Assembly: GCA_000004985.1 (NCBI GenBank) | Contig: GG738885.1 | Origin: Naegleria gruberi | Taxonomy: Eukaryota | Reading direction: 5' to 3' (one strand) | Length of the DNA: 64,000 nucleotides | Part shown: positions 21,762-54,332 of the stretch, piece after piece | Layout: each line of letters begins with the position of its first letter | Numbering within the stretch: the first letter of the stretch is position 1 | The notes under the pieces: generated by a model | Seen by the model: only the letters and a program-made list of their open reading frames with translations | What the model was told of the DNA's origin: nothing | Database searches by the model: none | Made by a program: the position numbers and the translations under genes

Positions 21762-22716
21762 ATGGTCGTCACTGTATTTCGTCCAATGGAAAAGAAATAT
21801 GCCACAAATGGTTGGCGTGTTCGTCTCATGCTCGAAGAAAAGGGAGTAAAATACGAAACTCGTCTCGTGATTTTAGAACATCGAGAACATTTGAACGAGG
21901 AAATTAGAAAATTAAGTTATAGAGGTTAGTTTAGTTGCTGATGATTTGTTTTTTTTAATATAGTTATGATCTTTGTGTTTCGTTTATTGTTGAATGGATG
22001 AAAATATATTCGAAACTTTGATCGGATAATGTTGGAAATTTTTTTGATCACATGATGATAATGTTCAATCTTGAAAAACAATTTTCTCTCGTGGATGGAT
22101 TGATTGTTGGATTTTCTTCTTCTTCTTTTAAAAAACAATTCTAATAATTTTATTCTAAACTACAACAATAGGCGAATTACCACTCTTTGAAGATTTTGCA
22201 GGAAGTTTAAGAGAAGAAACAGCCATGTTAAATTACATTGAAAAGAACTATCCAGAACCTCAATTAATTCCACCATCCGATGATCGTGCAAATTTTGGAC
22301 GAATCATTTCTCAATTCCATGAAGCCAATGGTCAATTCGCCCAAGTTTGCAAAGATATGATCAATACATTCATTGAATTGGAAGAAAAGAATATCACCTC
22401 TCACAAAAAACTACCAAAAGACATGAAAGATTACAAAACTCTTGTTTCTTATTGGAAACAAAAATTGGAAAGTGAAATGATCATTTGGGAAAATCGTTTA
22501 ACAAATGATTCTCTCTTTTTCAGTGGCACTGATCGTCCTTGCATTGTGGATGTTTCACTTTTCCCTTATTATTATCAAATTGTGAGATATGGATTGAGTG
22601 AATCATCTCTTCCAAAACTTAAAAAGTGGAGAGAGCGCATGGAAGATAGAGATAGTGTTAAGAGAACTAGTCCAGGAACAAGTTGGGTTGTACATCCATT
22701 CCTATTGAAATTTTAA
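21762..22716 (+). CDS. Glutathione S-transferase-like protein
   Basis: Two exons, 21762..21924 and 22172..22716. The intron 21925..22171 runs GTTAGT...AATAG and is phase 1. The thioredoxin-like N-domain reads VTVFRPMEKKYATNGWRVRLMLEEKGVKYE and is joined in frame to the helical GST C-domain. The ORF-track start at 21705 is TTG; the first ATG is at 21762. Confidence 0.7.
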
Positions 22717-22923
22717 ACTGTCTAGCTCAGGAAATGCGAATAAAATAGTAGAATTTTGATAGAATATATGCAAAAGAAATTGAATATTCATGTAGTACCA
22801 CTTGACTTATTGCTCTCCATTGATTAGTTTTCTTTACTAATCCATCAAATTGAAACATCAATATCAAATTTAAACTAGATAGACATTATGTAGAATTTTC
22901 AAAAACTTAAAAAAACAAAAAAA

Positions 22924-24621: not shown

Positions 24622-24883
24622 ATTATTATATATAATATGAAATTTAAATTGATTCCTCTATAAAGTGAATTAGTTTTCTGCAATGTGTCTATTTGTCTAT
24701 CTCAATAGTTTCCAAACTGGGCGAAACACATTTTAGAATGTATTGAGGGCCATTTATGGTAATTATTCAACATTGCTTTGAAAAAGAATCAAAAAAAAAG
24801 AAACAACAATTATCCTTCTTGCCTCTCAATGATTTGAGATTTTTGCCATTCAAGAAGCTATCATCAGAAATTTTCATCGTGCC

Positions 24884-27800
24884 ATGGCATCAAATTCTTC
24901 ATTGAAAATTGAAGAATTTTCATCATCCGAAAATAATAATAGTTCAACTTCATCATGTGGAGTTACTACTACAACTAGTGCTGCTTTTAATGATTTACCC
25001 GATAGTGTATTGGGTAATATAATGTCTTTTGTATTTTCATCATTTAAATATCAATTAAACAAGCCTTTGATATCTTCATCATTCCATAGAACAAGTAATA
25101 ATAATTCGGAAGAACAAAATCATCATCATCATAATGGAGAAGTAAATGATTCATCATTATCTTCATCTATAGAACAAGATTGTTCTCCAGAGGAATTATA
25201 TCATCGATCTATTTATGAATTGGAAACTCTGCCCTCTGTTTCTCAATCTCCACTTCATAAGTATTTGCACAAGAATGTAAAGTTTCATCGTTCTAATAAT
25301 GGAGCAAATAGAGAATTTGATGAAGCAGATGATGAAGATTTTGATGAGGATACAAATTTTGGATTGATAGGAAGTGGAGATATAAATTACGAACAAAAGA
25401 TGATTGGTAACTTTTGTGAGTTTTTGCAGAATTGGATAAGTTTTGCATCTGTAAATAGCAAATTGAGAAAGTTTATGAAGAGAAGCAAATCTGTAGGAGA
25501 TTTGATTGAATTTGATTTGATTAATTTTGCTTATTTCTACATGTTTAATAATGAAAAGTTGGTCTCTCCCACCTATTCATGTGTTGTGGAAGGACAAGAC
25601 GTTTTCGTAAGGAATGAGTATAGAACTGTTGTTCATCAATTATTTATGGATTTTATCAGAGTATTTGTTGATAGAGAGTTTGTTAAGAGAATTTGTTTGG
25701 ATTGTTCCTATTTGTTTGATTGGGTTCCTATTAATGGGGATTCTCTTATTGATGATGGTGATTGCAAGACGTTCACTATCGACCCAAGCCCATCAACAAC
25801 TCCAAATTATTTGGAAGATTATAACAAGATGTTTCCCAATGTAAATGTCCTTACTATTAATTTTACCTACAGAGGAAAAACAGAGGGTTATGAGGAGAAT
25901 GAGCTGAGCCTTGATGATTTGCAATCGCACTTGCTAACACTCGATACTAGCAATTTCCAAACTCTCTCACATTGGAAGCACTTGAATGAATTAAGATTGT
26001 GTTGGCATGTCGATGTGGATGAGGATACTCAAGTATTGGACCTTGTTTTAGGATCTCATCTGATGCAAGAGTTTTTGAATATTGTCTCTGAGGCCAAGAA
26101 AATTAATCACTTATTGTATATATCAGTGTATATTAATGGATCTGCATTCCATGTAACAAGGACTGAATCTGGTCAAATTATTTGCAATGATTCCTATCCT
26201 ACTAGGGTTATGGAAGAATTGAGCAATGTTGTCGACGAAAACTCAATGCTCAAATTACTCTATATTTGTATTGATCATTATGGCTATGCACACTATAAGA
26301 AACAACCATTGCAACTTTCTCTTATGGAAAATATTCTTCACATTGAAATTAATGACATTACTTGCCCAACTATTAACCAATTATTTAATTTATCATATCC
26401 TAAATTGTTGACATTAATATTGACCGACATTTGTGCTCCATCAAAGGAGGAGAGAGATGTTGCCATTACATCAAAGTTTCCAAAACTCGAGGAGCTACTC
26501 ATCAAATCCAAATTGAATTCCACTAGTAGATACACTAAATTCAATTTGGATTTGAGCCATATGAAAGCAGAAAAGATTAAGAAAGTTTGTTTGTATGGTG
26601 TAAATGATTTCCTCATTTCTAAGAATTCATTTGGAAACGTCATTGAAACTCTTGAAATACTAGTGCTGAAGGACAATACCTTTAATTATTCTCACTGGTT
26701 TACAAGCTTATCCTCTCTGAAGAATCTTCGCTTCAAAGTGGAACCAACAAAAAAGAGAGTGGATGAAACAGACTACGATGACGAGTCTGTAATGCTCTGC
26801 ACTACACGTATGAAATCTTGTACCACAATTGTTCACGATAAGCTCACCAATTTGCATATCAAAGATAGGAATACAAAGGGAATTTCTGTAATATGCCCTC
26901 GTCTCAAGGAGCTCGTAGTGAAGGCACCCAACATTGAAAGTTGTGAAATTTTGTGCCCAACCGTAAAAACTATTGATTTGAATGATATTTTAATGGGATT
27001 CGAACAACCACACAATCACTCTGGAAACTTTATGAAATTTATCAAGTATTCCTCACATCAATGGAAGTGGCACACTCCACTGTTGAATCAATTGAATTTA
27101 ATGCACTCCCTGAGACCAAATTATACCACCAATGATAATGGAGGAACTAATGCCCTCATTCTGCCAAATGCTCTCATTTCTCATGTTAAGGAGTTACAAG
27201 TTAAATTATCGGTGACTACCTTTGATAATGAAAAGGAATTATTCCCACCCTTGTTTGCCAGAATTGATAATCTATGTGGACACAAGAACCTACACGGAAC
27301 TTTGGAGAAGGTTAAAATCAAATTGGATATTGCAACATACTACCTCTCAGAACCAATGCTCAAACATTTCAGAGCAGTTTTGGAATGGAATGGAAATGGA
27401 AATAATGCCTATGACAGTGATTCAATGAAGCTCACAATACAACAAATTATCCAAGTTGCTAAATGTGTAGACCACTTTACAGATCATACCATGATTTTGG
27501 ATTCTCCATACTTGGCTTCTTTGGATGTTCATTTGGATGAAAAGGTTGAAAGAACCAAGATATCATGTCCGAACTTGAAGAGATTTGAACTTATTGATTG
27601 TAATTTACCTGGTCGTGTCAAATTCAGTGATGAGACTGCCTCATCCCTTGAACACATCTGCTTAGTTGGCATTTGTTCACCATTCAATCCACCTCCACAC
27701 TCATTCTTTCAAGAATCTGAAAATCTTAGAGTTGGTCGATCCACTCCAAAGATTTTCTGTTCAATTAGAGCAATTGCCAGCATTGGAAGTTTTGGATATC

Positions 27801-28076
27801 AGAAGAGAATACGGCCAAACTCCACATGAGAGATCCTATGTACAACTTGAAAATTACACCCACACCAACATCAGAATGATAAGAATCAATAATATCCGTA
27901 ATGTTAGCATTTCTTTGAAATTGGATACACCTAAATTAAGAATTGTTCAAGTTTCATCAGTGACTTGCAAGAATTGTGATATTGAGTTTGTAAATTGTCC
28001 AAGATTACTCAAAAAAGAAATTCAATTCACCATCTTACAGCCATCACCCAGACTTGCTCCTAAGGAATTTATATAA
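24884..28076 (+). CDS. Large F-box-like / cysteine-containing LRR protein; coding frame changes near 27665-27710 (short atypical intron, real frameshift, or sequencing error)
   Basis: The N-terminal motif is FNDLPDSVLGNIMSFVF, F-box-like. Repeated LRR-CC motifs follow (CPNLKRFELIDCNLPG, CPRLKELVVKAPNIESCEILCPTVKTIDL). LRR-like sequence continues in the +1 frame as ORF 27666..28076 (FKNLKILELVD...LPALEVLDI...). A 49-nt GT..AG interval at 27665..27713 would join the two frames, but its donor GTTGGC is unlike all other donors in the window. Confidence 0.45.
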
Positions 28077-28092
28077 ATTATTTTGTGATTAA

Positions 28093-29875
28093 TTATTTGT
28101 CCTCTTGATTTTCCTTATCGGCAGGCGACAGTTCAATACTATTAACATCCTCCAGTTCAGTACTCGTGGTGGTTTCATTCTTATCAATAGTTGCTGCTAG
28201 TTCTTTTGCAGCTGCCTTACCTTCTCTCCACTTGGCCAGAATTACCATTATGACACCTAGGAATATTCCCAAAGCACCTGGTATGATCCACAATGAAACC
28301 TCCTCTCCAGAAATCAATACAGTCATTGCTGTTGTAACTGTTGGAGAAATGGTTGAATAAATTCCAATCACAGTTGGGCTTGTTAAACTTGATGCTTTTG
28401 AACTCAATATAAAGCTAAAAGTTCCATGAATAAGAACAGCATAGGCCATTCCAATATATGACATATCATCCAATCTCCTAATTTCAAAATCTCTTATATT
28501 ATAGAGTGCAGCTAAAAATGGAATAAACAATCCTCCCAAAAAAGTCCAAAAATTCAAAGTAATTCCAGGAATTTTCTTATTCAACAATTTCTTCAATAAA
28601 ATCAAATAGAAAGCATAGGCCACAGTATTGAGAATAAGGATTATCATACCAATGGTAAAAGAAAATGCTTCCAATGCCGATGATTCTGATGCTTGGGTTT
28701 CCTCAGTTATAGCCGCCTTCTCCTTCGTAAGTGAAGGAATAATCAGCATGGCCATAGCTCCCATAGCAGAAATAACAACTCCCAAAATTTTAACAATTGA
28801 ACTAGCTTCCCTTCCCAAAAATATTGAAATAAGGCAAACCTCTAAATTCATTGAGAAATAGTTAAAATTCAATATATAAATATATTTTAGTTTCATAACT
28901 ATTATTGAAAACTTACCAACAGCAACTATTATTTTCATTATATTGATGAATAAAATTGTAATAAATCAACAACTTACCCAATGGTTGAACAATAGCAGCA
29001 ATGGTTGCATTAATCATTTTCATACCAATCACAAAAAGTACCATATTCAACATGTACATGGATCCACACACTACCATTCTCTTAAAATCCTTAAAACTTG
29101 GTGTCTTTTTGTAAAGGTATCTCAGTATTGGATTTTTAATTCTCGATAAGAATCTCTCTGATCTAAATGAATAATTTCGATCTACAATTAATGACAAGAC
29201 AAAATAACAAATAACCATCAAAAAACTTCTAACAAATGCAAAAATTGTTGGTCTCATGGTTCTGATTGGATTTGGTGCCAACACACAAAATCCTTGAAAT
29301 TTCCATTAAATTTCCAAATATATCAATTTAAAATTAAATTTCCAAATTAATTCGTACTTCCAAAACCTACCTCCAAAAGTCAATAAAGTCGAAAACATTA
29401 ACATGTGTACATAAAACTGTGACTGAGTAAATGAATCCCAATATTTCATCACTACATTCTTTTTCAATTCCTCTCCTTTTTCCTCATCCTCTTCATGATG
29501 TATTATATCAGTTATAGTTGGCAAATGTTCTCCTCCTTCCTTCTCATCATGATCCACCAGATCTTTCCCATTAACAATACCTGCTTCCTCTTCTTCATAA
29601 TATTCAGCAGCTCTGCCTTCATCTTCCTCTTCATCCTTCAATAAATAATTTAATGATGATGAGAATAACATATTCGTCGATGATGATGAAGATGATATTG
29701 TATTTATCATGATTGGTGCATTCAATTCATCATCATGATCCTCTTCATAGTGTCCCAACTCTCCTTCATTATCCACCATCATCCTTGTCGTTTTTTCTTT
29801 ACTCGGAGTGGTGCTGAATTTATTATTACTGTTTTTCATACTAGTTATTGTTGAGAATTTAGTGTTGGATGCCAT
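28093..29875 (-). CDS. EamA/DMT-superfamily membrane transporter (SLC35F-like), acidic N-terminal tail
   Basis: Three exons on the minus strand: 29371..29875, 28978..29292 and 28093..28841. The minus-strand introns are 29293..29370 (GTAGGT..CAAG, phase 1) and 28842..28977 (GTAAGT..TTTAG, phase 1). The spliced protein of about 523 aa has an Asp/Glu-rich N-terminus followed by about 10 TM helices forming two EamA-type halves. Confidence 0.6.
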
Positions 29876-30184
29876 TATCAATGTTGGCACTTTTTTTGGT
29901 AGGGGGTATTTTTGAATATTGAGGATTCTCCACATTTTAAAAAAGATCAAATGTTTGGTGCGAGGTGGATCTTGAAGATGCATGAAAGAAATTGCGGGTG
30001 GTCAATTAAGATATTTTTGATTGAAAATGAGGATTATTTGGAGTTTCAATCATTTTTGTAAGCTTTGCAGCTCAATTATTCCTCTCAATCAACAAAATAA
30101 ATTATCCAATTGAAAGTTCTCAATGGGCTAATAGTCGATACTATTGTTATAAATAATGTTGAATGAGTTTATTTTGTAGGCATG

Positions 30185-31795
30185 TTAATTTCTGAAAATA
30201 TACTTGAATTGAGTACTTTGGAAACCATTGAATTGTGAGCTAGAGGCAGTAGTGTAAGCTCCAAAATTGGTAAAGTACAAGAAATCACCTTCATTAAGCT
30301 CTGGCAATAAATAACCCTTACAGGTGATATCGATACTGTCACAAGTTGGTCCAAAACAAGTAGATTTGTACTTGGCTCCCTTCTCTTCAGCAGTTTTGAT
30401 TGTCTTGAATGTTGGTTCAGCATGATCGAAATAGATATTGTTGAAAGAACCATAGATACCATCATTGAGATAATAGATGAAATCATCCCTATCGTGAACA
30501 ATATCGCTAGCACCAGACTCTTCAAGTTGCTTATAGTAAAGCTTATTCTCTTCACGCAAGTCCTTCTTGGAGAAAATGTTAACAACCAAAACAGACACAG
30601 CTTGGGCAATAAAACGACCTGGTTCTGAAATGACCTTAACATGAGATGGGAACAAGTCATCGATCAAATCTCTAACATTAGAAGCAACATCTTCAACAGT
30701 TGGTGTCTCCTTGATATTACCCAAGAAACCACCACCAATATCTAACAAGTTGAATGAGTAACCATATTCTTCAGCCATGTCAAAGATAATTCTGGCATCC
30801 TTGACTGCTTTAACATAGGCATTAACATCTTGGCAACCAGAACCAACGTGGAAGCTAACACCACACAATTCAACATTGTTATCTTTGGCAGATTGGAAGA
30901 TTCCTCTTGCATTCTCGATTGATACACCAAATTTGGAAGAGAAGGCACAAGCAGAGTTGCTATCATCAGTTTTGATTCTAATGACACCCTTAACATCCTT
31001 CCATTGTCTTGCCAACTTTTCAACTTCTTGTGGAGAGTCAATTGTTGTCCATTGTAAACCATTGTCTCTGGCATATCTAACGTGAGACAATTGCTTACAT
31101 GGATTGGCAAAGATAATGTCAGTAGTGGTACAGAACTTCTTGCTCATTACTTGTTCAACAGTGACATTATTTACAAAAGCCAAAACCTCATAGAAATGAG
31201 GATGTTTGGCAAACCATTCATCAACTTCATTGCAGAGTTGAGTTACCAATTTGATTTCATTCAAAGAGGCACAATCAAATCCACAACCCATCATGTACAT
31301 AACCTTGATAATGCTTTCATTTGGATTACATTTGACAGCATAGTATGGGTTAATACGTGGGAAACATAGTCTCCATCTTTCAACTTGTCTAATAACATGA
31401 GACAAGTCAACAATATGGAAATTGTCTTCTTCGACATCCTTACAAATGTTTCTAACAATTTGTTTGGTTGTCATCTTCTTGGCATCACTTTCAATTGGGT
31501 AAAATTCAGCTTCAAAATATACCCTCAAGATTGTTTGCATGGCAGCTACTTTATCACAGTTGTAGTTGTGATGGAAAGTTTTCTTTTCATTTCTGATAGC
31601 ATTATTAATGGTATTTTGAATTAATGCAGCATGATCTTTCTTTGAGAAAGAATTGAGTAAGTTTTCTTCAATAGAAGTAGGTTGTCCATATAGTTCTAAT
31701 AAGAACTTATTAGCTTGATTGAAATCAAGACTTGATTGGTTGTTAACAGTGACAGTGGATGAAAATTCAGTATTTGCAAGGACAACACTACTCAT
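30185..31795 (-). CDS. Ornithine decarboxylase (PLP-dependent group IV decarboxylase)
   Basis: The ODC signature is PYYAVKCNPNESIIKVMYMMGCGFDCASLNEIKLV (PLP-binding Lys in YAVKCN). The glycine-rich loop DIGGGF and the C-terminal beta-barrel are present. The first ATG is at 31795; 92 further codons upstream remain open in frame to a TTG at 32071. Confidence 0.8.
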   Translation of the reverse strand: MSSVVLANTEFSSTVTVNNQSSLDFNQANKFLLELYGQPTSIEENLLNSFSKKDHAALIQNTINNAIRNEKKTFHHNYNCDKVAAMQTILRVYFEAEFYPIESDAKKMTTKQIVRNICKDVEEDNFHIVDLSHVIRQVERWRLCFPRINPYYAVKCNPNESIIKVMYMMGCGFDCASLNEIKLVTQLCNEVDEWFAKHPHFYEVLAFVNNVTVEQVMSKKFCTTTDIIFANPCKQLSHVRYARDNGLQWTTIDSPQEVEKLARQWKDVKGVIRIKTDDSNSACAFSSKFGVSIENARGIFQSAKDNNVELCGVSFHVGSGCQDVNAYVKAVKDARIIFDMAEEYGYSFNLLDIGGGFLGNIKETPTVEDVASNVRDLIDDLFPSHVKVISEPGRFIAQAVSVLVVNIFSKKDLREENKLYYKQLEESGASDIVHDRDDFIYYLNDGIYGSFNNIYFDHAEPTFKTIKTAEEKGAKYKSTCFGPTCDSIDITCKGYLLPELNEGDFLYFTNFGAYTTASSSQFNGFQSTQFKYIFRN

Positions 31796-32792
31796 TGAGT
31801 GTACTGGATTTCTTATTATTGTTGTGTTTTGATCCAAAAGGGAGGATTCCAATGTATTGCTATGGTTCAAGCTTGTTGAGGAAACGCGCTGAGGAGTGGA
31901 TGAAAAAAACTCAAAGGCTTTCAAGGTTGGATAAGTATTGAGAGAATAAAAAAGCTGTAGCAACAAGAGGTGGATACCAAAAACGCTTTGCTTTGTTTTT
32001 TTTGTTTGAATTGAGAAAAACGGTTCGCTTACCCTCAGCGCTTTAAATTCTCTGCCAAAACGACGCAGCAAACAACATCAAACTTTGCTCTCTGTGTTCT
32101 CGCACACTTTATTAATAGCCGATCGACTTCGTCCAATGAAAATCAAGAGAGTTGAGATGATGATGTGATTCTCAGCGAATAAACAATCGACAGAGACATA
32201 TTATTAGCCACACAGTTAAAGTTCTGTTGGAAGGGAATTTTGCTGTGTGCATCTGCTGTGTGATTATTCAATATTGGGCGTTGAATACCCTGTTGGGATT
32301 TTTGAGACAATTCAAAGCCTACAGAAATTTAACCTTGATGATCAACTCGCTGTTTAGAAATGGAATTGATGACTTTTGCAGAGAAGGTTGGAAATGAGGA
32401 ATTTCTCAGTAATTCACGTTGGCCGGTTGTATCAGGATTGACAAGTGGCAGATAAGAGAATTTGTTAAATGAAGGATTGAGTATTTACCCTTCTGCTCCT
32501 TAGCTAGAGTTTACAAAAAGTAAGGAAAATAGCACAGATTCAATGGTCCATTCAGATTCGAATACTAATGTACAGTATTTGAATGTTATCTTGAGGTTAG
32601 TTAAAAATAGAGTTTAGTAAGGAAACCTCCTTCTTCGAATAAGGATAACAATAGCAGTTCAAATTAGAAAGTTAATTTTATAAATAGCCATTCCACAAGT
32701 TCTAAAATTCGAAACTAAAGTTAATTTTGGACACAGACTATAGTTCACAAGTAAAATGAAGTTTAGTTTACAATAATTGACTACAGTAAATC

Positions 32793-36723: not shown

Positions 36724-38562
36724 ATGCAAAGAAGGTTCCAACATCAAACTCTCAAGAATTTATTCTCCGTGCTTCATCAACAACAAGATCAAATCCTGTT
36801 GAGAAAATTCTCATATTCTTCTTCAGTTTCCAATTCAGCTGAAACTAAAGTTCAACAAGACGAAACAGCAAAATGTCCTTACCACCAACAAAAACAAGAG
36901 AAAATTCTCACCTTTGATGATCTCCCTGGTCCTAAAGGTTTACCACTCGTTGGAAGTCTCTTTGATTTGATGAGAGCTTCGAATGGAATTCAAAATTATT
37001 TTTCACAACTTGTTGGTGATTATGGTAAAACTGTCAAGATCAAATTGTTGAATAAGAGAATGATCATTACACAGGATCCTGATTTGGCTAATGAAATTGC
37101 AAAACAGGATGAAGGAAGAGAAACTCTTGAACCAGGTAAGTTTTCTTCACATTGAGTTGATAATTTTAATTTGAATAGCAAGAAAATTCAAGGTTGAAAG
37201 AGGATTGCCTCAGAATCCAGTCGAATCTTACAATTATGAAGATTGGTATGATATGAGACAATTGTATAATATTGCAATGCGTAAGTTGACTATTTATTGA
37301 GATTGCCAAAATTTATATGGATAGGTCCTGAATTTGTTCAAAATGTTATCATTCCACAATTAACTGAACTCAATAGTGAATTTTTACAATATCTCACCAA
37401 AAATTTGGCCTATGACAAGGAGAAGGATCATTTCGAATTACAAAATGGAACAAGAGTTGTCAATAGATATACTTTCAATTCTGTTGTAAAGGTTTTCATG
37501 GGTGCCAAGATGACCGATGAAGCTGCCTCAAAGCTCTCTTACTCAATTGATGAATTTGTTAATTTGGTTGTTGTGTTTTTGGATAACATTTTGAAACTCC
37601 AAAATGGATCTCAACTTTACAAATTATTTAAAACCAAGGAATATCGTGATATGGAAAATGGATATGAATTGGGATTGAATAGATCAAAGGAATGTATTGA
37701 CATGTTTGATAAGGGTGAATATGCTGGAAAACCAAGAATGAAAGAACTCATTGAAGAAAGAGCTTCAAAATTCCAAGATAACAAGGATAAGCAACTCTAT
37801 GTAAATGTTGTGTTGAGCTCCTTCTTGATGGCTGGTGTTGATATCACTGCTCGTACCATAGTAGGTGAGTATTCTTTGTATTGAGAATTTTTCAATAATT
37901 CAATTTTAATGTGTTTGTTGTTTTGTGGAATAGTCTTAATGTATAGATTGGCCACTGAGAAGGAATTCCAAGAGAAACTCTACCAAGAAACTGTTGAAGT
38001 ATTTGGAGAACCAACATTGGATGAATTGACTTCAGAAAATGGTCTCACAATCACTCCAGAAACTTTGAAGAAACTCAAGTTATGCAGAGCCTTTGCAGAT
38101 GAAAGTTTGAGATTGAATCACATCATTAAATCGACAAGCACCAGACAATTGAGTAAGGATATTGTTGCTAGTGGAATTAAGATTGAACAGGGCACAACTG
38201 TCATGTTCTTGGAAGATCCTGCCAGGTATCAACAATGGGTTAAAAAGAGTACTGAATTCATTCCTGAAAGACATGAAAGAGGTTCTGACCTTGCCGTTCC
38301 AAAGACATTCTCTGGACCTTTCGGTAAAGGAGCTAGAAAATGTCCTGGTGAAAGAGTTGCCTTTACTGAAATTTACTTTGCCTTGATTAATCTTGCAAGA
38401 CATTTCAGATTATCTCACTCTAATGGAAACACTCTTCCTCCACTCAATGAAACCACAACTTTGGGGTATTTGGATATGAATAAGTATCATTTGTATTTCA
38501 AACCAAGAGAGCATTTGGCTGAATACTTTGAACAATTAAAGAAGACCCAAGCAAAACATTAA
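36724..38562 (+). CDS. Cytochrome P450, mitochondrial-clan-like
   Basis: Four exons: 36724..37135, 37179..37280, 37325..37864 and 37934..38562. The introns are 43, 44 and 69 nt (GTAAGT, GTAAGT, GTGAGT; phases 1, 1, 1). The spliced protein has a presequence-like N-terminus, the FDDLPGPKGLPLVGSL entry motif, the I-helix AGVDITARTIV, ESLRL (EXXR) and the heme loop FGKGARKCPGERVAF. Confidence 0.7.
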
Positions 38563-39148: not shown

Positions 39149-40326
39149 ATGAGTCGTCCAATTAATGTGGATCCGATAGCGTCTGGATCATACGGAGCCA
39201 TTGAATCGAGTAAAAAGTTTGATAAACCAAAGGATGCTGGTAAAACAGAATTATTTATTGATGAGAGGGATTTTAGGAAGGACGATGATTTGGAGGAAAA
39301 TTATAGAATTGTTGATGAAGGGAAGAAAAAATCGGCAGCACGAAAGCTTTGTTTGAGTATTGTGAAGGCTTTTGTTATCTTGTTGCTTTTTGCAGTTTTT
39401 GTTGGTATTGTCGTTTTGATTGTTGAATTGGTTGAATTGTTCCACACAAGTCAGGTGAGTTTTTCATTGTCACACCATATATCAATGATGGAATTAATGT
39501 GCTTGTACAATTATTATTATTATTATTGAATATTATTATAATTATTTGAAAATTATTGAATCACACATGATGAAAATATCTATTGGAATGTTCGGAATAA
39601 TGATAACAGGTTGCTGATTTGAATATTCACTTTAAATTGAGTGCTGAATGTGAAGCATCTGCAATGGATATCAATAATATTATTACTGGTTTGGATAAGA
39701 ATCAACAAATTAACTTTAATGTTACCCAACAACCACACGTTACTTTATACTTGACAAGATTCCTCAGTGAATTTACTGACACTATTATTTCAAGTGTCAA
39801 TCAAACATTACTTGCTGAAAGTAAACTTTACAATCTGACTGATTGTACTGCCACTACCAATACATTTGTCAATGTAACTGGTTCCTATGCATTATGGAAC
39901 ATGCCAATTCCAGCTTGTTTACAAAGAATGAGTGATATCATTGTAAATGCCACTTCTCAATTTGTAGATCCTAGAGTTAAGAACACTATTCCATCATGGG
40001 TCAATAATTTACCAAATGCTCTCAAGGAAGTTAAAATCAAAATGATTCACTTTTATGGATCTCCAAATGTTTATTCTCAATTCCAACCTCAGTAAGTTTT
40101 TCAAATATATATTTCAATTTTGAATCTCATACATTTATACAGTGTGACAGTTGCTCACGACGACGTCAATCCAAAGGAATTAGAACATGCCTTTGCCACC
40201 TTAGGACCTGTCCAATCATGCTCCTTCAAGATTAAGACCATTGCTATTGGCCAAACTGGCGATTATGGTACTGTTTTGAGAGGAAAGGACATTGCCTCTT
40301 TTGATCTTTCTCAATATTCCAATTAA
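39149..40326 (+). CDS. 2H phosphoesterase-superfamily-like protein with N-terminal signal-anchor (type II membrane topology) and multiple N-glycosylation sequons
   Basis: Three exons: 39149..39454, 39610..40091 and 40143..40326. The introns are 39455..39609 (GTGAGT..ACAG) and 40092..40142 (GTAAGT..ACAG, phase 2, restoring FQP|H). The spliced protein has a cytosolic N-tail and one TM helix (LCLSIVKAFVILLLFAVFVGIVVLIV). Its luminal domain carries two H-x-T-x motifs (QPHVTLYLT and QPHVTVAHD), the hallmark of the 2H cyclic phosphodiesterase/LigT fold. There are five NxT/S sequons. Confidence 0.5.
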
Positions 40327-42710: not shown

Positions 42711-43299
42711 GGTGATATTGTTGATTTTTTTTCGAACAAGAAAAATGAATTTTGGTTGATATGAATTTTACAATGAAAACTCACTAGCTAGGCAAACAAT
42801 AAAAAATTTGTTATCTTACCATCTACTCCTTGTTGTGCTGTTGTGATAACCTTCCAAGAAACTAATTTTGATAAGAAGGAATTGGTAAATTAATAGGAAA
42901 GTACTAAGAGGAATATCTTGGATATCTTCTAAATTATTGTTGAACATACTTGCATAGATTGAATTATAGTATTGCAATGTTTCAATCTAATCATGGAAGA
43001 GGAGAAGCCTCTCCAAGTCTATTCACTCACATCAGGGATTGGCTCTTCTCGCATAATGAACACAATTTGGATCTGTGTGGTGGCTTGGAAACTATTCGTC
43101 AATGTTTATCTCGATCGAAGGCTTTCCAATTTTCGTAGGTTTTTCTCTTCTTTGATCATCTTGATATTTATTGTCTGTGATGGAATTAAACAATTAATAA
43201 TAACGGATTAATTAACTATGGAATGATATGGAATAATTTAATGCCAATGATGAGAATAGGAATAATCTTCGTTATCAAATCTATAAAACAATTACTCAA

Positions 43300-46371: not shown

Positions 46372-48624
46372 ATGACCTTTCTAACACCAACTGTTGATAA
46401 CAGTACCACATCTACTCGAAAGAATAGTACACTTCTGACCCCTCCTCCAACTGGAACCAAATCACCTTCTTCCACAACACATTCAGCCACCAATCCAACA
46501 AACCAAGACGAAACTCGATCAGCAGTCTCTAAAGCAGGAGGAAATTCTTCTATTGAAAATGGCAACATTAAGAAGGAATTATACATGAAGAGAAAGAGAA
46601 TCACATTACTGAGCAGTATCTTGGGTTTAATATTTGCAGTATTAGCTGTTGCTGTTCTGTCACCAATCATTGTCATTGTCATTCACTCATTGGAAAAACA
46701 GAGAAAAGATGGATATGTAGAGAGAGTGAAACAGATTGCAATTACTGCAGAGCTGCTAATCAGAAAACAAGTTGAAGTTTCGTTTGGTTCTCTACAAATT
46801 ATGAGTCAAGTCGCCCAAGAATGGAATTATTCGATTAATTTGGAAAGATTTAACAATTTTGCTTCAAGGTTGACCAAAGATTTTCCAGAATTGAATACTT
46901 TTGAGTATGCTCTGACGGATGAGTTTGTTTTGGAGTATATTTATCCATTGGCAGGATTGGAATTTATGATTGGACATCACATGGGTCTTAATACGTATGT
47001 AATTTTTACAATTTTTGTAATTTTTTAATTTTTTAAATATTTTGTAATTTATTTAATAATATTTAATAATATTTAATTTGAAATTGTAAAATATTGAATG
47101 AAATTGTATTGAAATAGACCTGCTCATACAACAATTATTAAGGAAGCAGTTGCTACGAAAAAGACAAAAATCTTTGGACCAATCAATATGATCAATTTGG
47201 ATCCTAATTCTGTGGCTGTAATTGCTCAGAATCCAATTTACTATCCGAATGGAACTTTCTTTGGTTTGAGTGTGGAACTGTTCGATTTTATGAAACTATT
47301 CGAAACTATAGATTTACACACAGTTCTATCAGGATTCCAATACCAACTATTCGAATATGCTCAAAATCAAATCTTTATGCAAAATCTCAATGGAACCAAA
47401 TCAGGAACCATTGGAACTATAGGAAATCCCAATGTGAAATATTTAACAGATTCAATCGAACGAAACATGACAGTCATGAACAGTAATTGGAAAATTATCC
47501 TTCGTCCAATTGATGGCTGGGACACTGACAGCTTACTCTGGCTTGAAGTCTGCATTGGCATTGCAGTTGCCTTAGTAGTTTTCATTCTCGTCATTTTAGG
47601 AGTCAACCAATTGGTTCAAGATTATTTCAGAAAGAAGGAATATCAATATATTCAAGATAGTTTGGAAATGAAAGTTAAGGAGAGAACGAAAGATTTGGCT
47701 AGCTCACATTCTCAATTATTGTTGCTTTTGGATAGAATTTCATTTGAGGAGCAGAGAACGAAAAAGATTATGAATTCTCTGGAAGATTCGGTTATCACGA
47801 TTGATTCGTCAGCTATGGGAAAGATTATACATTCGAATAATGCATTTTTTAAGAATTTTGGATATACTGATTCGGATTTGATTAGAAATTTGTCAATTTC
47901 AACTCTTTTACCAAAGTTAAATTTGAGTACGATTGTGACAGAGTTGAAGAATCAAGCCGATTTGAAAGTAGCCGAAACTACTGCCAATACAAAGACAGGA
48001 GTTTCGCTCAATGTGAAAGTTTCCATCTCCATGAGTCAAATTTACAATCAACCTTCCAATAATCAACAAAATTCGATTGGTCAACCAGGAATTCCAACCA
48101 TTACCATCACAGACGAAAAGGAAAGAGAAATGGCAACCATCAGAGAATGCAAACTCCAAACTGTCTACGTTATCCTAATCCACATCCTCGACACAATCAT
48201 CCATCCAACAGGTTTCAACGAACACTATCAACTCACCAACCAAATCACAAATGAATTTCTGGAATTTTTCACAGATATTGAAAATCGAAAGAAATTTAAA
48301 GAATTTTGCTCGACTGAAAGAAACGATGAAAATATTTGCTTTTTGGAAGATGTGGAATTTTACAAAAGTTTGGGGAATATTCAAGAAAGAGTTACAATGC
48401 AAGAGGAAATGTATAACAAGTATCTTAAGGCTAATTCTCCAAAACAGTTGAATATTTCAAAGAAACAATTAGAAACTCATTCGTTCAAGATTAGTCGAGG
48501 TTTGGGAGAATTTGAACTGTTTGACGAGTTGGAGAGGACTGTTATCTTGACAGTTTCAATGGATAGCTTTAAGAGATGGCAAGAGAAGGAGAGAAGAAAT
48601 GAGGATCATCTCAATTATCTGTAA
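46372..48624 (+). CDS. Two-TM sensor protein: extracytoplasmic CHASE-like domain - TM - coiled coil - PAS - C-terminal RGS domain
   Basis: Two exons, 46372..46994 and 47118..48624. The intron 46995..47117 runs GTATGT..AATAG and is phase 2. The Ser/Thr-rich N-terminus leads into TM1 (ITLLSSILGLIFAVLAVAVLSPIIVIVI). An extracytoplasmic domain of about 270 aa follows (...IMSQVAQEWNYS...PAHTTIIKEAVATKKTKIFGPINMINLDPNSVAVIAQNPIYY...), then TM2 (LLWLEVCIGIAVALVVFILVILGV). A PAS-like block (LEDSVITIDSSAMGKIIHSNNAFFKNFGYTDSDLI) and an RGS-like C-terminus (NDENICFLEDVEFYKSL...FELFDELERTVILTVSMDSFKRW) complete it. Confidence 0.55.
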
Positions 48625-49483: not shown

Positions 49484-49601
49484 GGCTACGGCCATATCAC
49501 GATTCATGCACCTCATCCCGTCCGATTTGAGAAGTTAAGCATCGTCGAGCCACATCAGTACTGAGGTTGGAGACAACTTGGGAACCTGTGGTGCTGTAGT
49601 C
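49484..49601 (+). rRNA. 5S ribosomal RNA gene
   Basis: GGCTACGGCCATATCACGATTCATGCACCTCATCCCGTCCGATTTGAGAAGTTAAGCATCGTCGAGCCACATCAGTACTGAGGTTGGAGACAACTTGGGAACCTGTGGTGCTGTAGTC aligns with eukaryotic 5S along its length. Matching blocks include GCGGCCATA, CCCGTCCGAT, AAGTTAAGC, the AGTA loop and the GGTGCTGTAG 3' end. A TTTTT Pol III terminator lies at 49602..49606. Confidence 0.9.
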
Positions 49602-49877
49602 TTTTTGCCTTATCAGAATGTGATACTAGTGTTACTTATCAAGTTTGCCATCTTTATGGTCAATCCAGTTTGCTTCTCTCTTTCTTTCCATTATTCCAAA
49701 CAGCTTCGTTGGATTGATTACCTACATTGCTCCATCATCAATTAGTAATTAAGATTCACTACATGTTCAATAATTGTACTAGGCATTATTATTTATTAAA
49801 ATACCACAAACATTTAGCCAATCCTCACTCGACAACAAACAGAATAAATACAATGATCCTTATGTAATACTCAAAAC

Positions 49878-50065
49878 CATCTTTCTCGGCCAATTGGCTT
49901 TGATCGAGTATCTATTCTTTTCAGTTTAATAGCTGAAAGCAGCCCACGGGTTGCATTACTATTAACTCAATTTTTTGTAGGGATCAGGGGTTGAGCTTAA
50001 TTGCTCACTTTGATTTGGTTTCAATCAGACATTGCACAAACCGTCAGATTAGGAGCCACCCAACT
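49878..50065 (+). ncRNA. U2 spliceosomal snRNA gene (variant branch-point-interaction region)
   Basis: ATCTTTCTCGGCCAATTGGCTTTGATCGAGTATCTATTCTTTTCAGTTTAATAGCTGAAAG parallels the U2 5' end (AUCGCUUCUCGGCCUUUUGGCUAAGAUCAAGUGUAGUAUCUGUUCUUAUCAGUUUAAUAUCUGAUA). An Sm site AATTTTTTG is present. The 3' stem-loops end ...GGAGCCACCC, compared with ...GGUGCACCC in human. Total length is about 188 nt. The GUAGUA hexamer region reads CGAGUA and is 5 nt shorter. Confidence 0.6.
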
Positions 50066-51072
50066 CTTTTTATTAATTGAAAATTCATTGCGCATTGAGA
50101 ATCTCAATCAGAGTAAAATTGAGTTTTTTTTCAAATTCCGAGCTTGTATGATGACGAAGATATTAAATTAAATAATAGTAAGCATGATGAGGGACCCAAA
50201 CCATGAACAAGATGGAGGATAAATTGAATCCATCAAATATCAAATGCAGTCCTCCAACTTCGTGTACTGCATTCATTAAGGCTGCTCCTTCATTGAAAGT
50301 AGAAACAAAAAAACAATTAGTTCCTTTGAATACAAACAAAATTCTGGATAACTTTCATTGTTTAAAGAAAAATGGAAGGTAAAGCACAAGAAATCCAAAA
50401 TGTAATTTCATTAAAGTGAAAAACATTATTTGGTAAATTTGTTCAATTTCAAGAGGCACAAGATTTATTACTGGACAAAGCAGTATTAAAATACATCAGA
50501 TGCATAGAAAACGTTCATTGGTTTTTTGAGCTCAACTTTGCCAAGTTCAGTTGAGTATCTGCTTGTGATTTTTGCAGAAAATAGGTCAGTATAATCTGAG
50601 GTTATCTTCTTTATGGTTTTAAGAGATGATCATTTGAAAATCGAGAATTAGGTAGACTAGATGCTTTTATCGATATTTTGAATATTAAAATTAAGAGATG
50701 AAGTGAAAAATTAATCTCGAGTGCCGGGAATTGAAACGCTCCTGCCTTTTGGTTGAAGTAAAATTTCAAACAACCTTCACTGCAATTCTTCTTCTTTGTG
50801 TTATTAAAAAAACAAAAGGCATTGAGAGCATTCAAATTGAATTTGCTTCAAAACAGACTTTCTTAAATCATTTATATCCACTCTAGATACCTTACTTAAA
50901 TTATCAAGTGCTGACGGATCATATCTCTCTTATATAGTACAGTATCGAGAAATTTAAGTTAATGGAAGGAACATTAGGTAAAGGTAATGACTCGAAAGCA
51001 TCTCCAAAATTCCACATACACGATTTCACAATTTTCAAATATTCTTTTGAATTGGTTTATTTAGCAATCACA

Positions 51073-52449: not shown

Positions 52450-53340
52450 TGTATAATACTACTTAGTACTAAGTGATGTTAATTGTTTCATTTCACTTAT
52501 GAATTTGAATCCTTCTACACTAATTTGATTTCCACCAATATCAAGTGATTTTAATTGTCTCATTTCACTTATAAATTTGGCTCCTTCATCACCAATTTGA
52601 TTTCCACCAATAACAAGTGATTTTAATCGTTTCATTTCACTAATAAATTGACTCCTTCATCACCAATTCGATTGTTATAAATAGTCGAGTGATGTTAATT
52701 GTTTCATTTCACTTATTAATATGGCTCCTTCATCACCAACTCGATTTCTACCAATACCAAGTGATGTTAATCGTTTCATTTCGCTTATTGATTTGACTCC
52801 TTCATCACCAATTCTATTGTAACTAATATCAAGTGATGTTAATTGTTTCATTTCACTTATAAATATGGCTCCTTCATCACCAATTCGATTTTCAGAAATA
52901 TTAAGTGATGTTAATTGTTTCATTTCAATAATAAATTTGACTCCTTCATCACCAATTCGATTGTTATAAATATAAGTGATGTTAATTGTTTCATTTCGCT
53001 TATTGACTTGGCTCCTTCATCACCAATTCGATTTCCACCAATACCAAGTGATGTTAATCGTTTCATTTCACTTATTGATTTGACTCCTTCATCACCAATT
53101 CGATTGTTACTAATATCAAGTGATATTAACTGTTTCATTTCACTTATAAATTTGGCTCCTTCATCACCAATTCGATTTTACAAATATCAAGTGATGTTAA
53201 TTGTTTCATTTCAGTTATGAATGTGGGTTTTTCTATAGAGTCAAACAACCTTTTAGTAAATATAACATTAACAATACTATTCATAAATTGACTTTTCGTG
53301 AATAATTCATTCTTTTCACCAATTCTTTTTAAATATATCA
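52450..53340 (-). pseudogene. Frame-decayed partial duplicate of the downstream F-box/LRR gene's RNI-type LRR array
   Basis: About ten 84-bp LRR-coding units (MKQLTSLDISNNRIGDEGVKSISE consensus) are read on the minus strand. They are broken by at least four single-base indels relative to the intact units. At about 53180, attgttactaatatc reads attttacaaatatc. At about 52975, atagtaagtg reads atataagtg. At about 52685, atagtaagtg reads atagtcgagtg. At about 52640, aaatttgactcc reads aaattgactcc. The 5' boundary at about 53221..53300 duplicates the segment at 53941..54020. Confidence 0.5.
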
Positions 53341-54000
53341 AGTGATGTTAATCGTGTCATTTCACTTATGAACTTGACTCCTTCATCACCAATTTGATTT
53401 CCGCCAATATCAAGTGATTTTAATTGTTTCATTTCACATATAAATTTGGCTTCTTTATCACCAATTCGATTGTAACATATATCAAGTGATGTTAATTGTT
53501 TCAGTTCACTTATAAATATGGCTCCTTCGTCACCAATTCGATTTTCAGAAATATTAAGTGATGTTAATTGTTTCATTTCACTTATTGATTTGGCTCCTTC
53601 ATCACCAATTCGATTGTTATAAATAGTAAGTGATGTTAATTGTTTCATTTCACATATAAATTTGACTCCTTCATCACCAGTTTGATTGTTATTAATATCA
53701 AGTGATGTTAATTGTTTCATTTCGCTTATTGACTTGGCTCCTTCATCACCAATTTGATTTCCACCAATACCAAGTGATGTTAATCGTTTCATTTCAATTA
53801 TTGATTTGACTCCTTCATCACCAATTCCATTGTTATAAATACCAAGTGATATTAACTGTTTCATTTCACTTATAAATTTGACTCCTTCATCACCAATTCG
53901 ATTGTTACTAATATCAAGTGATGTTAATTGTTTCATTTCAGTTATGAATGTGGGTTTTTCTATAGAGTCAAACAACCTTTTAGAAAATTTAACATTAACA
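52450..54000. repeat. Tandem array of ~84-bp (28-codon) LRR-coding units; ~720-bp segmental tandem duplication
   Basis: Period-84 repetition is visible directly in the sequence (gtgatgttaattgtttcatttcacttataaat...ctccttcatcaccaattcgatt...). The block 53161..53300 recurs at 53881..54020. Confidence 0.7.
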
Positions 54001-54332
54001 ATACTATTCATAAATTGACTTTTCGTGAATAATTCAATTCTTTTCTCTGTAAATTTCTTTTTAAATTTAATAAAAAGTTTTGAACGTTCCTTGATCACAT
54101 TAAAGAATTGTTTTGAAATCAAGGAACAATTATTCAAAATAAACCACGAATCATCAATCATGGAAATTATTTCAAAACAAATATCATCGGAAAATATTTC
54201 TTCTCGTTGGAGCGACACTAGTTTTTTCTTTTTTGCCTTCTCCTCCATGTTATTATTATTATGATTGATCACGAGTAGCAGTTCCTCCGAAGTTTTTAGC
54301 TTTTCGAAATCTTGTCTGTTTCGTTTGCTCAT
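53316..54332 (-). CDS. F-box-like / RNI-type leucine-rich-repeat protein (intact copy)
   Basis: A 338-aa ORF. It has an F-box-like segment (DDICFEIISMIDDSWFILNNCSLISKQFFNVIK). It is followed by eight near-perfect 28-aa repeats (xEMKQLTSLDISNNRIGDEGVKFISE). The C-terminus, ...LDIFKKNW, runs into the duplication junction, so the true 3' end is uncertain. Confidence 0.55.
   Translation of the reverse strand: MSKRNRQDFEKLKTSEELLLVINHNNNNMEEKAKKKKLVSLQREEIFSDDICFEIISMIDDSWFILNNCSLISKQFFNVIKERSKLFIKFKKKFTEKRIELFTKSQFMNSIVNVKFSKRLFDSIEKPTFITEMKQLTSLDISNNRIGDEGVKFISEMKQLISLGIYNNGIGDEGVKSIIEMKRLTSLGIGGNQIGDEGAKSISEMKQLTSLDINNNQTGDEGVKFICEMKQLTSLTIYNNRIGDEGAKSISEMKQLTSLNISENRIGDEGAIFISELKQLTSLDICYNRIGDKEAKFICEMKQLKSLDIGGNQIGDEGVKFISEMTRLTSLDIFKKNW

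What the first reader, a model, noticed from the sequence alone, without database searches (positions are those of the whole stretch)
49484..50070. 5S rRNA and U2 snRNA genes linked head-to-tail; U2 copy has an altered branch-site-pairing hexamer
A canonical 5S rRNA gene ending in a T5 terminator is followed 276 bp later, on the same strand, by a U2 snRNA gene of about 188 nt. The U2 gene has a recognisable 5' end, Sm site and terminal stem-loops. Linkage of 5S genes to other small-RNA genes is known in several lineages but is not universal, and it is useful as a synteny marker. In my manual alignment the U2 region that should read GAUCAAGUGUAGUAUCUGUUC reads GAUCGAGUAUCUAUUC. That is 5 nt shorter, with CGAGUA in place of the branch-point-pairing GUAGUA. 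This could be a variant or pseudo U2 copy, a lineage-specific U2, or my misalignment.
Basis: partly seen in the sequence, partly recalled or inferred. Interest (0 to 1): 0.5.

Follow-up and report, generated by a model that had tools for sequence, protein, structure and literature searches.

The report
Naegleria 5S-linked U2 lacking branch-site hexamer
In the amoeba Naegleria gruberi, a normal 5S rRNA gene sits just upstream of a full-length U2 spliceosomal RNA gene that is intact except for a real 5-base deletion in the near-universal sequence that pairs with intron branch sites; I could not determine whether this is Naegleria's normal U2 or an odd extra copy.

Summary
Rfam finds a full-length 5S rRNA (49484-49602, 100 bits) and, 274 nt downstream on the same strand, a full-length U2 snRNA (49877-50064, 95 bits). 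The window is Naegleria gruberi: one ORF is 100% identical to its ornithine decarboxylase.

Infernal places a 5-nt gap where other U2s read AGUGU. The gene reads GAUCG-AGUAUCUAUUC. No GUAGUA occurs anywhere in it, even with one mismatch, so this is not a misalignment. Sixteen other distinct U2 5' regions (62 copies) all keep GAUC(A)AAGUGUAGUAUCUGUUC.

Everything else is intact:
- stems I, IIa, IIb, III and IV
- the helix Ia/Ib nucleotides that pair with U6
- the Sm site
- the stem IV loop, AUUGCAC

No second Naegleria U2 locus could be obtained. So a lineage-typical functional U2 (about 0.5) and a variant or pseudogene copy (about 0.35) remain unresolved. Thirty-eight Naegleria introns show no excess complementarity to either GUAGUA or the truncated site.

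Two precedents exist within Discoba: trypanosomatid U2 replaces GUAGUA, and Diplonema has SL-5S-U2 repeats. The 5S-U2 pair is absent from the orthologous N. lovaniensis locus.

The parts
49484..49602 (+). 5S rRNA gene, full length
   Evidence: Rfam RF00001, 100.3 bits, model 1-120/120
49602..49606 (+). T5 run at the 3' end of the 5S gene (Pol III terminator type)
   Evidence: Sequence read directly. The terminator function is inferred from established Pol III biology.
49607..49876 (.). AT-rich spacer between 5S and U2. No repeat, tRNA or other Rfam hit.
49843..49850 (+). AATAAATA, a TATA-like element at about -36 to -29 from the probable U2 5' end (A at 49879)
   Evidence: Sequence read directly. 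A promoter role is inference only.
49877..50064 (+). U2 snRNA gene, full length. The probable mature 5' end is AUCUUUCUCGG at 49879.
   Evidence: Rfam RF00004, 94.6 bits, model 1-192/192. The single-strand fold reproduces the U2 architecture: -53 kcal/mol, z=-3.1.
49884..49903 (+). Stem-loop I (UCUCGGCC AAUU GGCUUUGA). The usual AA/UA internal pair/bulge is UU here.
   Evidence: cmscan structure line; fold
49897..49906 (+). Nucleotides that form U2/U6 helix Ib (GCU, 49897-49899) and helix Ia (GAUC + G, 49902-49906). They are retained, with the last A replaced by G.
   Evidence: Alignment to the model and to 16 other U2s. The pairing partners are assigned from established U2/U6 models, not tested here.
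49906..49910 (+). Remnant of the branch-point recognition sequence: G-AGUA. The 5-nt gap lies between 49906 and 49907. GUAGUA and the 3-nt linker to helix Ia are not both present.
49912..49917 (+). CUAUUC, where all 16 comparison U2s have CUGUUC (A at 49914)
49919..49938 (+). Stem-loop IIa
49939..49954 (+). Stem-loop IIb (GCAGCCC AC GGGUUGC). The sequence is lineage-specific but fully paired.
49969..49977 (+). Sm site AAUUUUUUG
   Evidence: cmscan alignment; sequence
49982..50016 (+). Stem-loop III
50017..50057 (+). Stem-loop IV with the conserved loop AUUGCAC. The assignment of this loop as the U2A'/U2B'' binding loop comes from established knowledge, not from a test here.
50067..50071 (+). 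T5 run 2 nt after the U2 3' end
   Evidence: Sequence. Its significance is uncertain because the gene itself contains a T6 run.

Best explanation
This is a genuine, structurally intact U2 snRNA gene of Naegleria gruberi. It lies 274 nt downstream of, and on the same strand as, a genuine 5S rRNA gene, in a unique gene-dense chromosomal region. My preferred reading is that it represents the functional Naegleria type of U2. In that reading, a 5-nt loss has fused the helix Ia segment (GAUCG) directly to a shortened branch-interacting sequence (AGUA, or GAGUA if the G is shared). The neighbouring, otherwise invariant CUGUUC has also changed to CUAUUC. U2 would then make only 4-5 base pairs with the intron upstream of the branch adenosine, perhaps leaving a two-nucleotide bulge or using a shifted register. 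Branch-site choice would rest mainly on proteins (SF1, U2AF, SF3B), as is argued for trypanosomatids, the other Discoba lineage whose U2 lacks GUAGUA. The U2 gene is probably transcribed on its own by Pol II rather than by Pol III with the 5S gene. The reason is that its Sm site contains a T6 run, longer than the T5 run that ends the 5S gene. Shown here: the identity and completeness of both genes, the deletion, intact structure elsewhere, and the absence of a canonical branch-site consensus in a small intron sample. Inferred: that this copy is expressed and typical of the genome, the pairing model, and the polymerase assignment.
For: (1) Full-length Rfam hits for both genes. (2) All other U2 modules are intact: stems I, IIa, IIb, III and IV fold as expected, with lineage-specific but paired sequences (IIb, III, IV). 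Also intact are GCU..GAUC for U6 pairing, the Sm site AAUUUUUUG, and the stem IV loop AUUGCAC. (3) All three departures from invariant U2 sequence lie within about 10 nt of each other, in one functional module: A-to-G at the end of helix Ia, the 5-nt loss, and G-to-A in CUGUUC. The rest of the conserved single-stranded blocks are untouched. That pattern is expected for co-evolution of a module and is less expected for random decay. (4) The linked 5S gene is also perfect (100 bits), so the unit as a whole does not look decayed. (5) In 38 Naegleria introns (11 from the window, 27 from N. lovaniensis and N. fowleri), complementarity to canonical GUAGUA with a bulged A is no better than in shuffles (z = -0.4 and 0.0). 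No UACUAAC or CUAAC-type k-mer is enriched. So there is no sign that these introns need a canonical U2. (6) There is precedent in the same supergroup: L. major U2 has UUAUAA in place of GUAGUA (PMC4950102), and kinetoplastids lack a conserved branch-point motif (PMC11613528; PMC6698659).
Against: No second Naegleria U2 gene could be examined, so 'typical of the genome' is untested. GUAGUA and its spacing from helix Ia are invariant in all 16 other distinct U2s sampled. They are also, from general knowledge, invariant in nearly all eukaryotes that do cis-splicing. Even trypanosomatid U2 keeps the spacing (PMC4950102 primer sequences read GATCATGTTTATA). A 5-nt loss at the catalytic core is therefore a priori unlikely to be tolerated. 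Complementarity of the introns to the truncated site CGAGUA is not enriched either (z = -2.8 and -0.9). The 5S-U2 pair is missing from the orthologous N. lovaniensis locus, which is what one expects of a recently dispersed and possibly dispensable copy. Expression was not tested.
Confidence: 0.5

Rival explanations
1. It is a non-functional or barely functional paralogue: a young U2 pseudogene carried along with a 5S gene. Naegleria's working U2 genes, elsewhere in the genome, would have the canonical GAUCAAGUGUAGUAUCUGUUC. This copy suffered a 5-nt deletion that happens to fall in the branch-site region and has not yet decayed elsewhere.
For: The canonical sequence and spacing are invariant in every other U2 sampled. 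The locus is not conserved in N. lovaniensis, consistent with recent dispersal of a 5S-U2 unit. Multi-copy snRNA families commonly contain variant and dead copies, and expressed and silent human U2 variants are documented (bioRxiv 10.1101/2020.01.24.917260). The introns show no complementarity to the truncated site.
Against: Everything else in the 188-nt gene, and the linked 5S gene, is intact. A random 5-nt deletion has only about a 6% chance of falling in this roughly 12-nt module. Two further changes at otherwise invariant positions sit right next to it. No canonical U2 fragment is present in the window. The introns show no complementarity to GUAGUA either.
Confidence: 0.27
2. It is an expressed minor U2 variant that coexists with canonical U2 and serves a subset of introns or a life-cycle stage. 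This would resemble the stage-regulated U2 variants reported in Dictyostelium (from memory) and the expressed human U2 variants.
For: The Sm site, protein-binding loops and U6-pairing nucleotides are intact, so it could assemble into a snRNP. An enriched intron motif, TGGAAT/GGAATG, occurs in about a quarter of introns. That would allow for intron subclasses.
Against: There is no evidence for a second U2 class, for expression, or for a class of introns complementary to the variant site.
Confidence: 0.1
3. The 5-nt gap is an assembly or sequencing error in the reference genome.
For: None specific. It cannot be formally excluded because no independent assembly of this locus was reachable.
Against: The region is not a homopolymer or simple repeat. 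A clean 5-nt loss plus two adjacent substitutions is not a typical error. The flanking sequence aligns to the model with high posterior probability.
Confidence: 0.03
4. The reader's manual alignment was wrong, and an intact GUAGUA lies elsewhere in the molecule.
For: None.
Against: The Infernal alignment reproduces the gap. No GTAGTA with <=1 mismatch occurs in 49877-50064.
Confidence: 0.01

Closest known systems
Canonical U2 spliceosomal snRNA (Rfam RF00004)
   Same: Full-length match with the same stem-loops I, IIa, IIb, III and IV, the same U6-pairing nucleotides, Sm site and stem IV loop, and a size of about 186-188 nt.
   Different: It lacks 5 nt between helix Ia and the branch-interacting sequence, so GUAGUA is reduced to (G)AGUA. 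CUGUUC is CUAUUC, and the stem I internal AA is UU.
Trypanosomatid U2 snRNA (L. major, T. brucei)
   Same: It belongs to the same supergroup (Discoba). The canonical GUAGUA is absent, and branch-point selection is not explained by canonical U2 pairing (PMC4950102, PMC6698659, PMC11613528).
   Different: Trypanosomatid U2 substitutes the hexamer (UUAUAA) but keeps the spacing. It is short (about 143 nt), has a non-canonical Sm site without a U run, is made by Pol III from tRNA-like upstream promoters, and works mostly in trans-splicing. The Naegleria gene has a deletion, a canonical Sm site with U6, full length, and no tRNA nearby.
5S rRNA genes linked to small-RNA genes: the SL-5S-U2 tandem repeats of Diplonema papillatum, and SL-5S units of euglenozoans
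   Same: A 5S gene and a U2 gene are adjacent in a Discoba genome (PMC10161547 and its Additional file 1).
   Different: Here there is a single dispersed 5S-U2 pair between protein-coding genes. There is no SL RNA gene and no tandem array. It is not conserved at the orthologous N. lovaniensis site.
Small-RNA gene islands in uncultured eukaryotes (metagenome contigs L004, L005)
   Same: 5S and U2 lie within a few hundred nt of each other.
   Different: Those islands also carry U1, U4, U5, U6, SRP or U3 genes in about 2 kb, and their U2s are canonical.
Variant or pseudogene snRNA copies (for example human U2 variants)
   Same: A member of a multi-copy snRNA family that departs from the consensus.
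   Different: Typical pseudogenes show scattered substitutions and truncations. Here the only departures are clustered in the branch-site module.

Membership tests
U2 snRNA (RF00004) | Covariance-model score above the curated gathering threshold over the full model | tested here: met
   94.6 bits against a threshold of 46, model 1-192/192
U2 snRNA (RF00004) | Stem-loops I, IIa, IIb, III and IV | tested here: met
   cmscan structure line. An independent MFE fold gives the same helices, z=-3.1.
U2 snRNA (RF00004) | Branch-point recognition sequence GUAGUA at the canonical distance from helix Ia | tested here: not met
   5-nt gap, sequence GAUCGAGUAUCU. No GUAGUA within one mismatch in the gene.
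U2 snRNA (RF00004) | Nucleotides that pair with U6 (helix Ib GCU, helix Ia GAUCA) | tested here: inconclusive
   GCU and GAUC are present and the fifth position is G instead of A. The N. gruberi U6 was not available, so pairing could not be checked.
U2 snRNA (RF00004) | Sm site RAU(3-6)GR between stems IIb and III | tested here: met
   AAUUUUUUGUA at 49969-49979
U2 snRNA (RF00004) | Expression and incorporation into a U2 snRNP | not testable with these tools
   No RNA-seq access
5S rRNA (RF00001) | Covariance-model score above threshold, full length, all helices | tested here: met
   100.3 bits against a threshold of 38, model 1-120/120
5S rRNA (RF00001) | Pol III terminator T run at the 3' end | tested here: met
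   T5 at 49602-49606
Tandem 5S-snRNA/SL repeat units (Diplonema type) | The unit is repeated head-to-tail many times | tested here: not met
   One 5S and one U2 in 64 kb, with no direct repeats around them
Trypanosomatid-type Pol III U2 gene | Upstream tRNA or tRNA-like A/B boxes, and no internal T run | tested here: not met
   No tRNA in the window. The Sm site contains T6.
snRNA pseudogene | A canonical parent gene elsewhere in the same genome, and no expression of this copy | not testable with these tools
   The N. gruberi genome outside the window is not indexed in any searchable collection

The most novel reading that the evidence does not exclude
All U2 genes of Naegleria (a free-living eukaryote with thousands of ordinary GT-AG cis-introns and a protein-rich spliceosome) carry this 5-nt deletion. 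Its spliceosome would then work with a 4-5-nt branch-interacting sequence that abuts U2/U6 helix Ia. That implies a remodelled geometry between the branch helix and the catalytic core, and largely protein-driven branch-site choice. It would be the first such case outside the trans-splicing trypanosomatids.
Probability: 0.45. Interest if true: 0.75.

Novelty: new variant of a known kind. Interest (0 to 1): 0.45.

Why it matters
GUAGUA in U2, and its fixed distance from the U2/U6 catalytic helices, is among the most conserved RNA features in eukaryotes. It underlies the textbook model of how the branch adenosine is bulged out and presented to the active site. If a cis-splicing organism with about ten thousand introns manages with this module shortened by 5 nt, it would be a natural experiment. 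It would show how much of branch-site recognition and positioning is really RNA-based. Together with trypanosomatids, it would also suggest relaxed constraint on this module across Discoba. If the copy is only a damaged paralogue, the finding is ordinary. In that case it mainly records that 5S and U2 genes travel together in Naegleria, as 5S, SL and U2 genes do in Diplonema.

Tried and rejected
(1) Finding other Naegleria U2 loci. All attempts failed.
- The metagenome pattern scan, anchored on GGCTNTGATC with a 0-9 nt spacer, returned 5 U2s. All have canonical length and come from unrelated eukaryotes.
- A broad scan of GTDB genomes returned 28 loci. All are canonical U2s from eukaryotic contamination of MAGs.
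- The IMG/VR scan returned none.
- I searched the protein database with concatenated six-frame 'peptides' of the U2 gene, hoping to catch spurious ORF calls over other copies. It returned nothing.
- N. gruberi genes are not indexed for contig look-up.

(2) Synteny. The N. lovaniensis orthologue of the upstream cupin-like gene (L001), an ENA contig (L002) and a Logan contig (L038) carry no 5S or U2. Neither do the N. fowleri and N. lovaniensis ODC loci (L036, L037).

(3) Branch-site consensus.
- Sliding every U2 hexamer, with a bulged A, over the last ~53 nt (AG excluded) of 38 introns gave no convincing peak for the canonical or the truncated site. The z-values scatter between about -5 and +3 for reasons of dinucleotide composition.
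- An EM search found a degenerate motif, WTKSAMW (TTTCAAA, TTGGAAT). It is about 2-fold enriched in the sense strand of intron 3' ends. But it is near-palindromic, has no fixed distance to the 3' splice site, and was evaluated on the data it was trained on. I do not claim it as the branch site.

(4) A 'mini branch-point-interacting stem-loop' around AGUA. The predicted hairpins are no more stable than shuffles, for Naegleria and for the canonical sequence alike. I dropped this.

(5) Pol III co-transcription with the 5S gene. I rejected this because of the T5 terminator after 5S and the T6 run inside U2.

(6) U12 identity. Rfam clan competition keeps U2, and the architecture is that of U2.

(7) Literature. 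No paper in the library describes the Naegleria U2 sequence, and the exact string GATCGAGTATCT / GAUCGAGUAUCU occurs in no paper.

Full report
**What is there.** Rfam 15 at curated thresholds finds two RNA genes in the 64-kb window, both on the + strand. One is a 5S rRNA at 49484-49602 (100.3 bits, full model). The other is a U2 snRNA at 49877-50064 (94.6 bits, full model 1-192). A permissive scan (E<=1) adds nothing, and ARAGORN finds no tRNA. The 5S gene ends in a T5 run (49602-49606). The U2 gene begins 274 nt later and is followed, 2 nt after its end, by another T5 run.

**Which organism.** The window is 32-38% G+C with long, closely spaced ORFs. The ornithine decarboxylase ORF at 30185-32071 (-) is 100% identical to the Naegleria gruberi protein. 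The next-best hits are two unnamed proteins from Logan assemblies (65% and 62%) and N. fowleri (66% identity over a shorter span). The window is therefore N. gruberi nuclear DNA (Heterolobosea, Discoba). The ORFs carry RhoGEF, RGS, LRR, RCC1, serpin, UNC-93 and P450 domains.

**The altered branch-site region is real.**
- Infernal's own alignment opens a 5-column gap opposite model positions AGUGU, giving GAUCGA-----GUAUCUAUUC. Posterior probability is high on both sides.
- No GTAGTA, even with one mismatch, exists anywhere in the gene.
- No second canonical branch-site region exists in the window.
- For comparison I collected U2 genes from public collections with patterns that allowed 0-9 nt between GATC and GTATCT. 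Sixteen other distinct 5' regions (62 copies, from unrelated uncultured eukaryotes and from host contamination in MAGs) all read GATC-(A)AAGTGTA-GTATCTGTTC. The window copy alone reads GATC-GA-GTATCTATTC.
- So three departures from otherwise invariant sequence lie within about 10 nt of each other: A-to-G at the last helix Ia position, the 5-nt loss, and G-to-A in CUGUUC.
- The same sequence can also be described as loss of AAGU plus the U of GUAGUA. That leaves G-AGUA directly abutting GAUC.

**Everything else is intact.**
- The cmscan structure line and an independent minimum-free-energy fold of 49879-50064 both give stem-loops I, IIa, IIb, III and IV (-53 kcal/mol, z=-3.1 against shuffles).
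- Stems IIb, III and IV use lineage-specific sequences that still pair.
- The GCU and GAUC nucleotides, the Sm site AAUUUUUUG and the stem IV loop AUUGCAC are all present. GCU and GAUC form U2/U6 helices Ib and Ia in established models.
- The linked 5S gene is also flawless.
- This is not a decayed locus. It is either a working gene of unusual design or a very young casualty.

**Attempts to decide between those two.** The decisive datum is the sequence of the other U2 genes of Naegleria. I could not obtain it.
- IMG/VR returned none.
- A search for spurious ORF calls overlapping U2 copies found nothing.
- N. gruberi genes are not indexed for contig retrieval.
- Synteny did not help. The cupin-like gene that ends 193 nt upstream of the 5S gene has an N. 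lovaniensis orthologue (61% identity), and the 20.6-kb locus around it contains no 5S or U2. The same holds for the two short contigs from related uncultured organisms and for the ODC loci of N. fowleri and N. lovaniensis.
- The 5S-U2 pair is therefore a dispersed unit, not a conserved landmark.

**What the introns say.** I assembled 38 Naegleria introns.
- Eleven come from the window. I found them by requiring a GTRNGW donor (the likely-real ones read GTRNGT) and open frames of at least 50 codons on both sides.
- Twenty-seven come from N. lovaniensis and N. fowleri genes. There I solved the exon structure exactly from the annotated span and protein length, and 11 of the 14 genes (20 of the 27 introns) gave a unique solution.
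- Donors are GTRNGT, and acceptors are mostly YAG (32 of 38).
- In the last 50 nt there is no enrichment of UACUAAC or CUAAC-type words.
- Complementarity to GUAGUA with a bulged A equals that of shuffles (z = -0.4 and 0.0). Complementarity to the truncated CGAGUA is no better (z = -2.8 and -0.9).
- An EM search finds a degenerate motif, WTKSAMW (TTTCAAA, TTGGAAT, TTTCACA). It occurs at 23.5 per kb in intron 3' ends, against 10-14 per kb in antisense, in the rest of the introns and in non-ORF DNA.
- That motif is near-palindromic, has no fixed position, and was tested on its training data. I treat it as an unexplained lead, not as the branch site.
- Conclusion: these introns give no evidence that Naegleria needs a canonical U2, and no evidence that they have adapted to the truncated one. 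The test has low power.

**Most likely mechanism.** I favour, at about even odds, that this is the functional Naegleria type of U2. U2 would pair with the intron through AGUA (plus the shared G) and leave the branch adenosine, possibly two nucleotides, unpaired. Proteins would supply most of the specificity.

The clustering of all three changes in one module, the intact remainder, and the intact 5S partner fit this reading better than random damage does. Discoba also supplies a precedent. L. major U2 carries UUAUAA for GUAGUA (PMC4950102). Branch-point choice in T. brucei is not explained by canonical pairing (PMC6698659), and kinetoplastids have no conserved branch motif (PMC11613528).

Two points count against it. 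Trypanosomatids keep the spacing, whereas here 5 nt are gone next to the catalytic helices. And no second copy was seen.

The U2 gene is probably an independent Pol II unit. It contains a T6 run, and a T5 run suffices to end the 5S gene, so co-transcription or Pol III transcription is unlikely. This is an inference. A TATA-like AATAAATA lies at about -36 to -29.

**Rivals.**
- A young pseudogene (about 0.27) or an expressed minor variant (about 0.10) would be the ordinary explanations. Both are favoured by the extreme conservation of the canonical sequence and by the non-conserved location.
- An assembly error is unlikely (about 0.03).
- Misalignment is refuted.

**Comparison with what is known.**
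- By homology this is unambiguously a U2 gene. It fails one functional hallmark of the family, GUAGUA at the canonical distance.
- 5S linkage to small-RNA genes is known. Diplonema papillatum has SL-5S-U2 tandem repeats, and SL-5S units are common in euglenozoans (PMC10161547). I also ran into compact small-RNA islands that include 5S and U2 in two metagenome contigs.
- The Naegleria arrangement differs in being a single dispersed pair without an SL gene.
- I found no description of the Naegleria U2 sequence or of this deletion in the searchable literature.

**Verdict.** Its meaning hinges on one simple computation that these tools could not perform: a U2 scan of the whole genome, or RNA-seq mapping. 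Interest is moderate overall (0.45). It would be high if the deletion proves genome-wide and low if it is a lone variant.

Noticed in passing
window introns 4241-4364(+), 37865-37933(+), 39455-39609(+), 43135-43259(+); also introns in L001, L036, L037: TGGAAT / GGAATG is over-represented in the last 50 nt of Naegleria introns. TGGAAT occurs 7 times against 0.95 expected, and GGAATG 5 times against 0.4. A broader degenerate motif, WTKSAMW (TTTCAAA, TTGGAAT, TTTCACA), is about 2-fold enriched in the sense strand of intron 3' ends. It could be a degenerate branch site or a splicing enhancer. It has no fixed distance to the 3' splice site.
   Followed up: partly
L004 194-2159 and L005 662-2063 (JGI metagenome contigs Ga0164294_10055722, Ga0115007_10064390): These are compact small-RNA gene islands in unidentified eukaryotes. 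L004 carries U5, SRP RNA, U6, 5S, U4, U2 and U1 within about 2 kb. L005 carries U2, U1, U4, U5 and U3 within about 1.4 kb.
   Followed up: no
L008, L009, L015, L019-L021, L024, L028, L029, L032 (contigs of MAG 'uncultured Hormoscilla sp.' CAWUFA03): A GTDB cyanobacterial MAG contains long tandem arrays of a canonical eukaryotic U2 gene with a period of about 1378 bp. This is presumably host (sponge) DNA binned into the MAG. Several other MAGs (Poribacteria, Dehalococcoidia, Endozoicomonas, Cetobacterium, Dysgonomonas) also carry eukaryotic U2 genes.
   Followed up: no
L003 3951-4142, L006 5972-6163, L007 1705-1889: These are U2 genes from uncultured eukaryotes. They share the unusual GGCUUUGAUC (UU instead of AA/UA) and the UUCUUUUCAGUUUAAU of the Naegleria gene, but they keep the canonical AAGUGUAGUA. 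Their 5' ends lack the usual CUUCUCGGCC half of stem I. Their taxon is unknown.
   Followed up: partly
window 10716-13994 (+): A single 1092-aa ORF fuses a cytochrome P450 domain to flavodoxin/FAD/NAD reductase domains. This is the self-sufficient P450-reductase fusion architecture.
   Followed up: no
window 52459-54332 (-): A run of leucine-rich-repeat ORFs has near-identical repeat units (motif SEMKQLTSL...GDEGA). It is split into several ORFs, suggesting a repetitive LRR gene with introns or frame breaks.
   Followed up: no
window 18122-32071 versus L036 (N. fowleri VFQX01000029.1): Synteny around ornithine decarboxylase is only partial. ODC and the EamA-type transporter stay adjacent in both species. 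The adh_short gene and others are rearranged, and the region 18 kb away that holds 5S-U2 in N. gruberi is not covered.
   Followed up: partly
window 299-1885 (+) and 46372-48624 (+): There are two RGS-domain genes in one window. The second also has a weak, sub-threshold PAS-domain match and a 123-nt, 90% A+T intron at 46995-47117.
   Followed up: no
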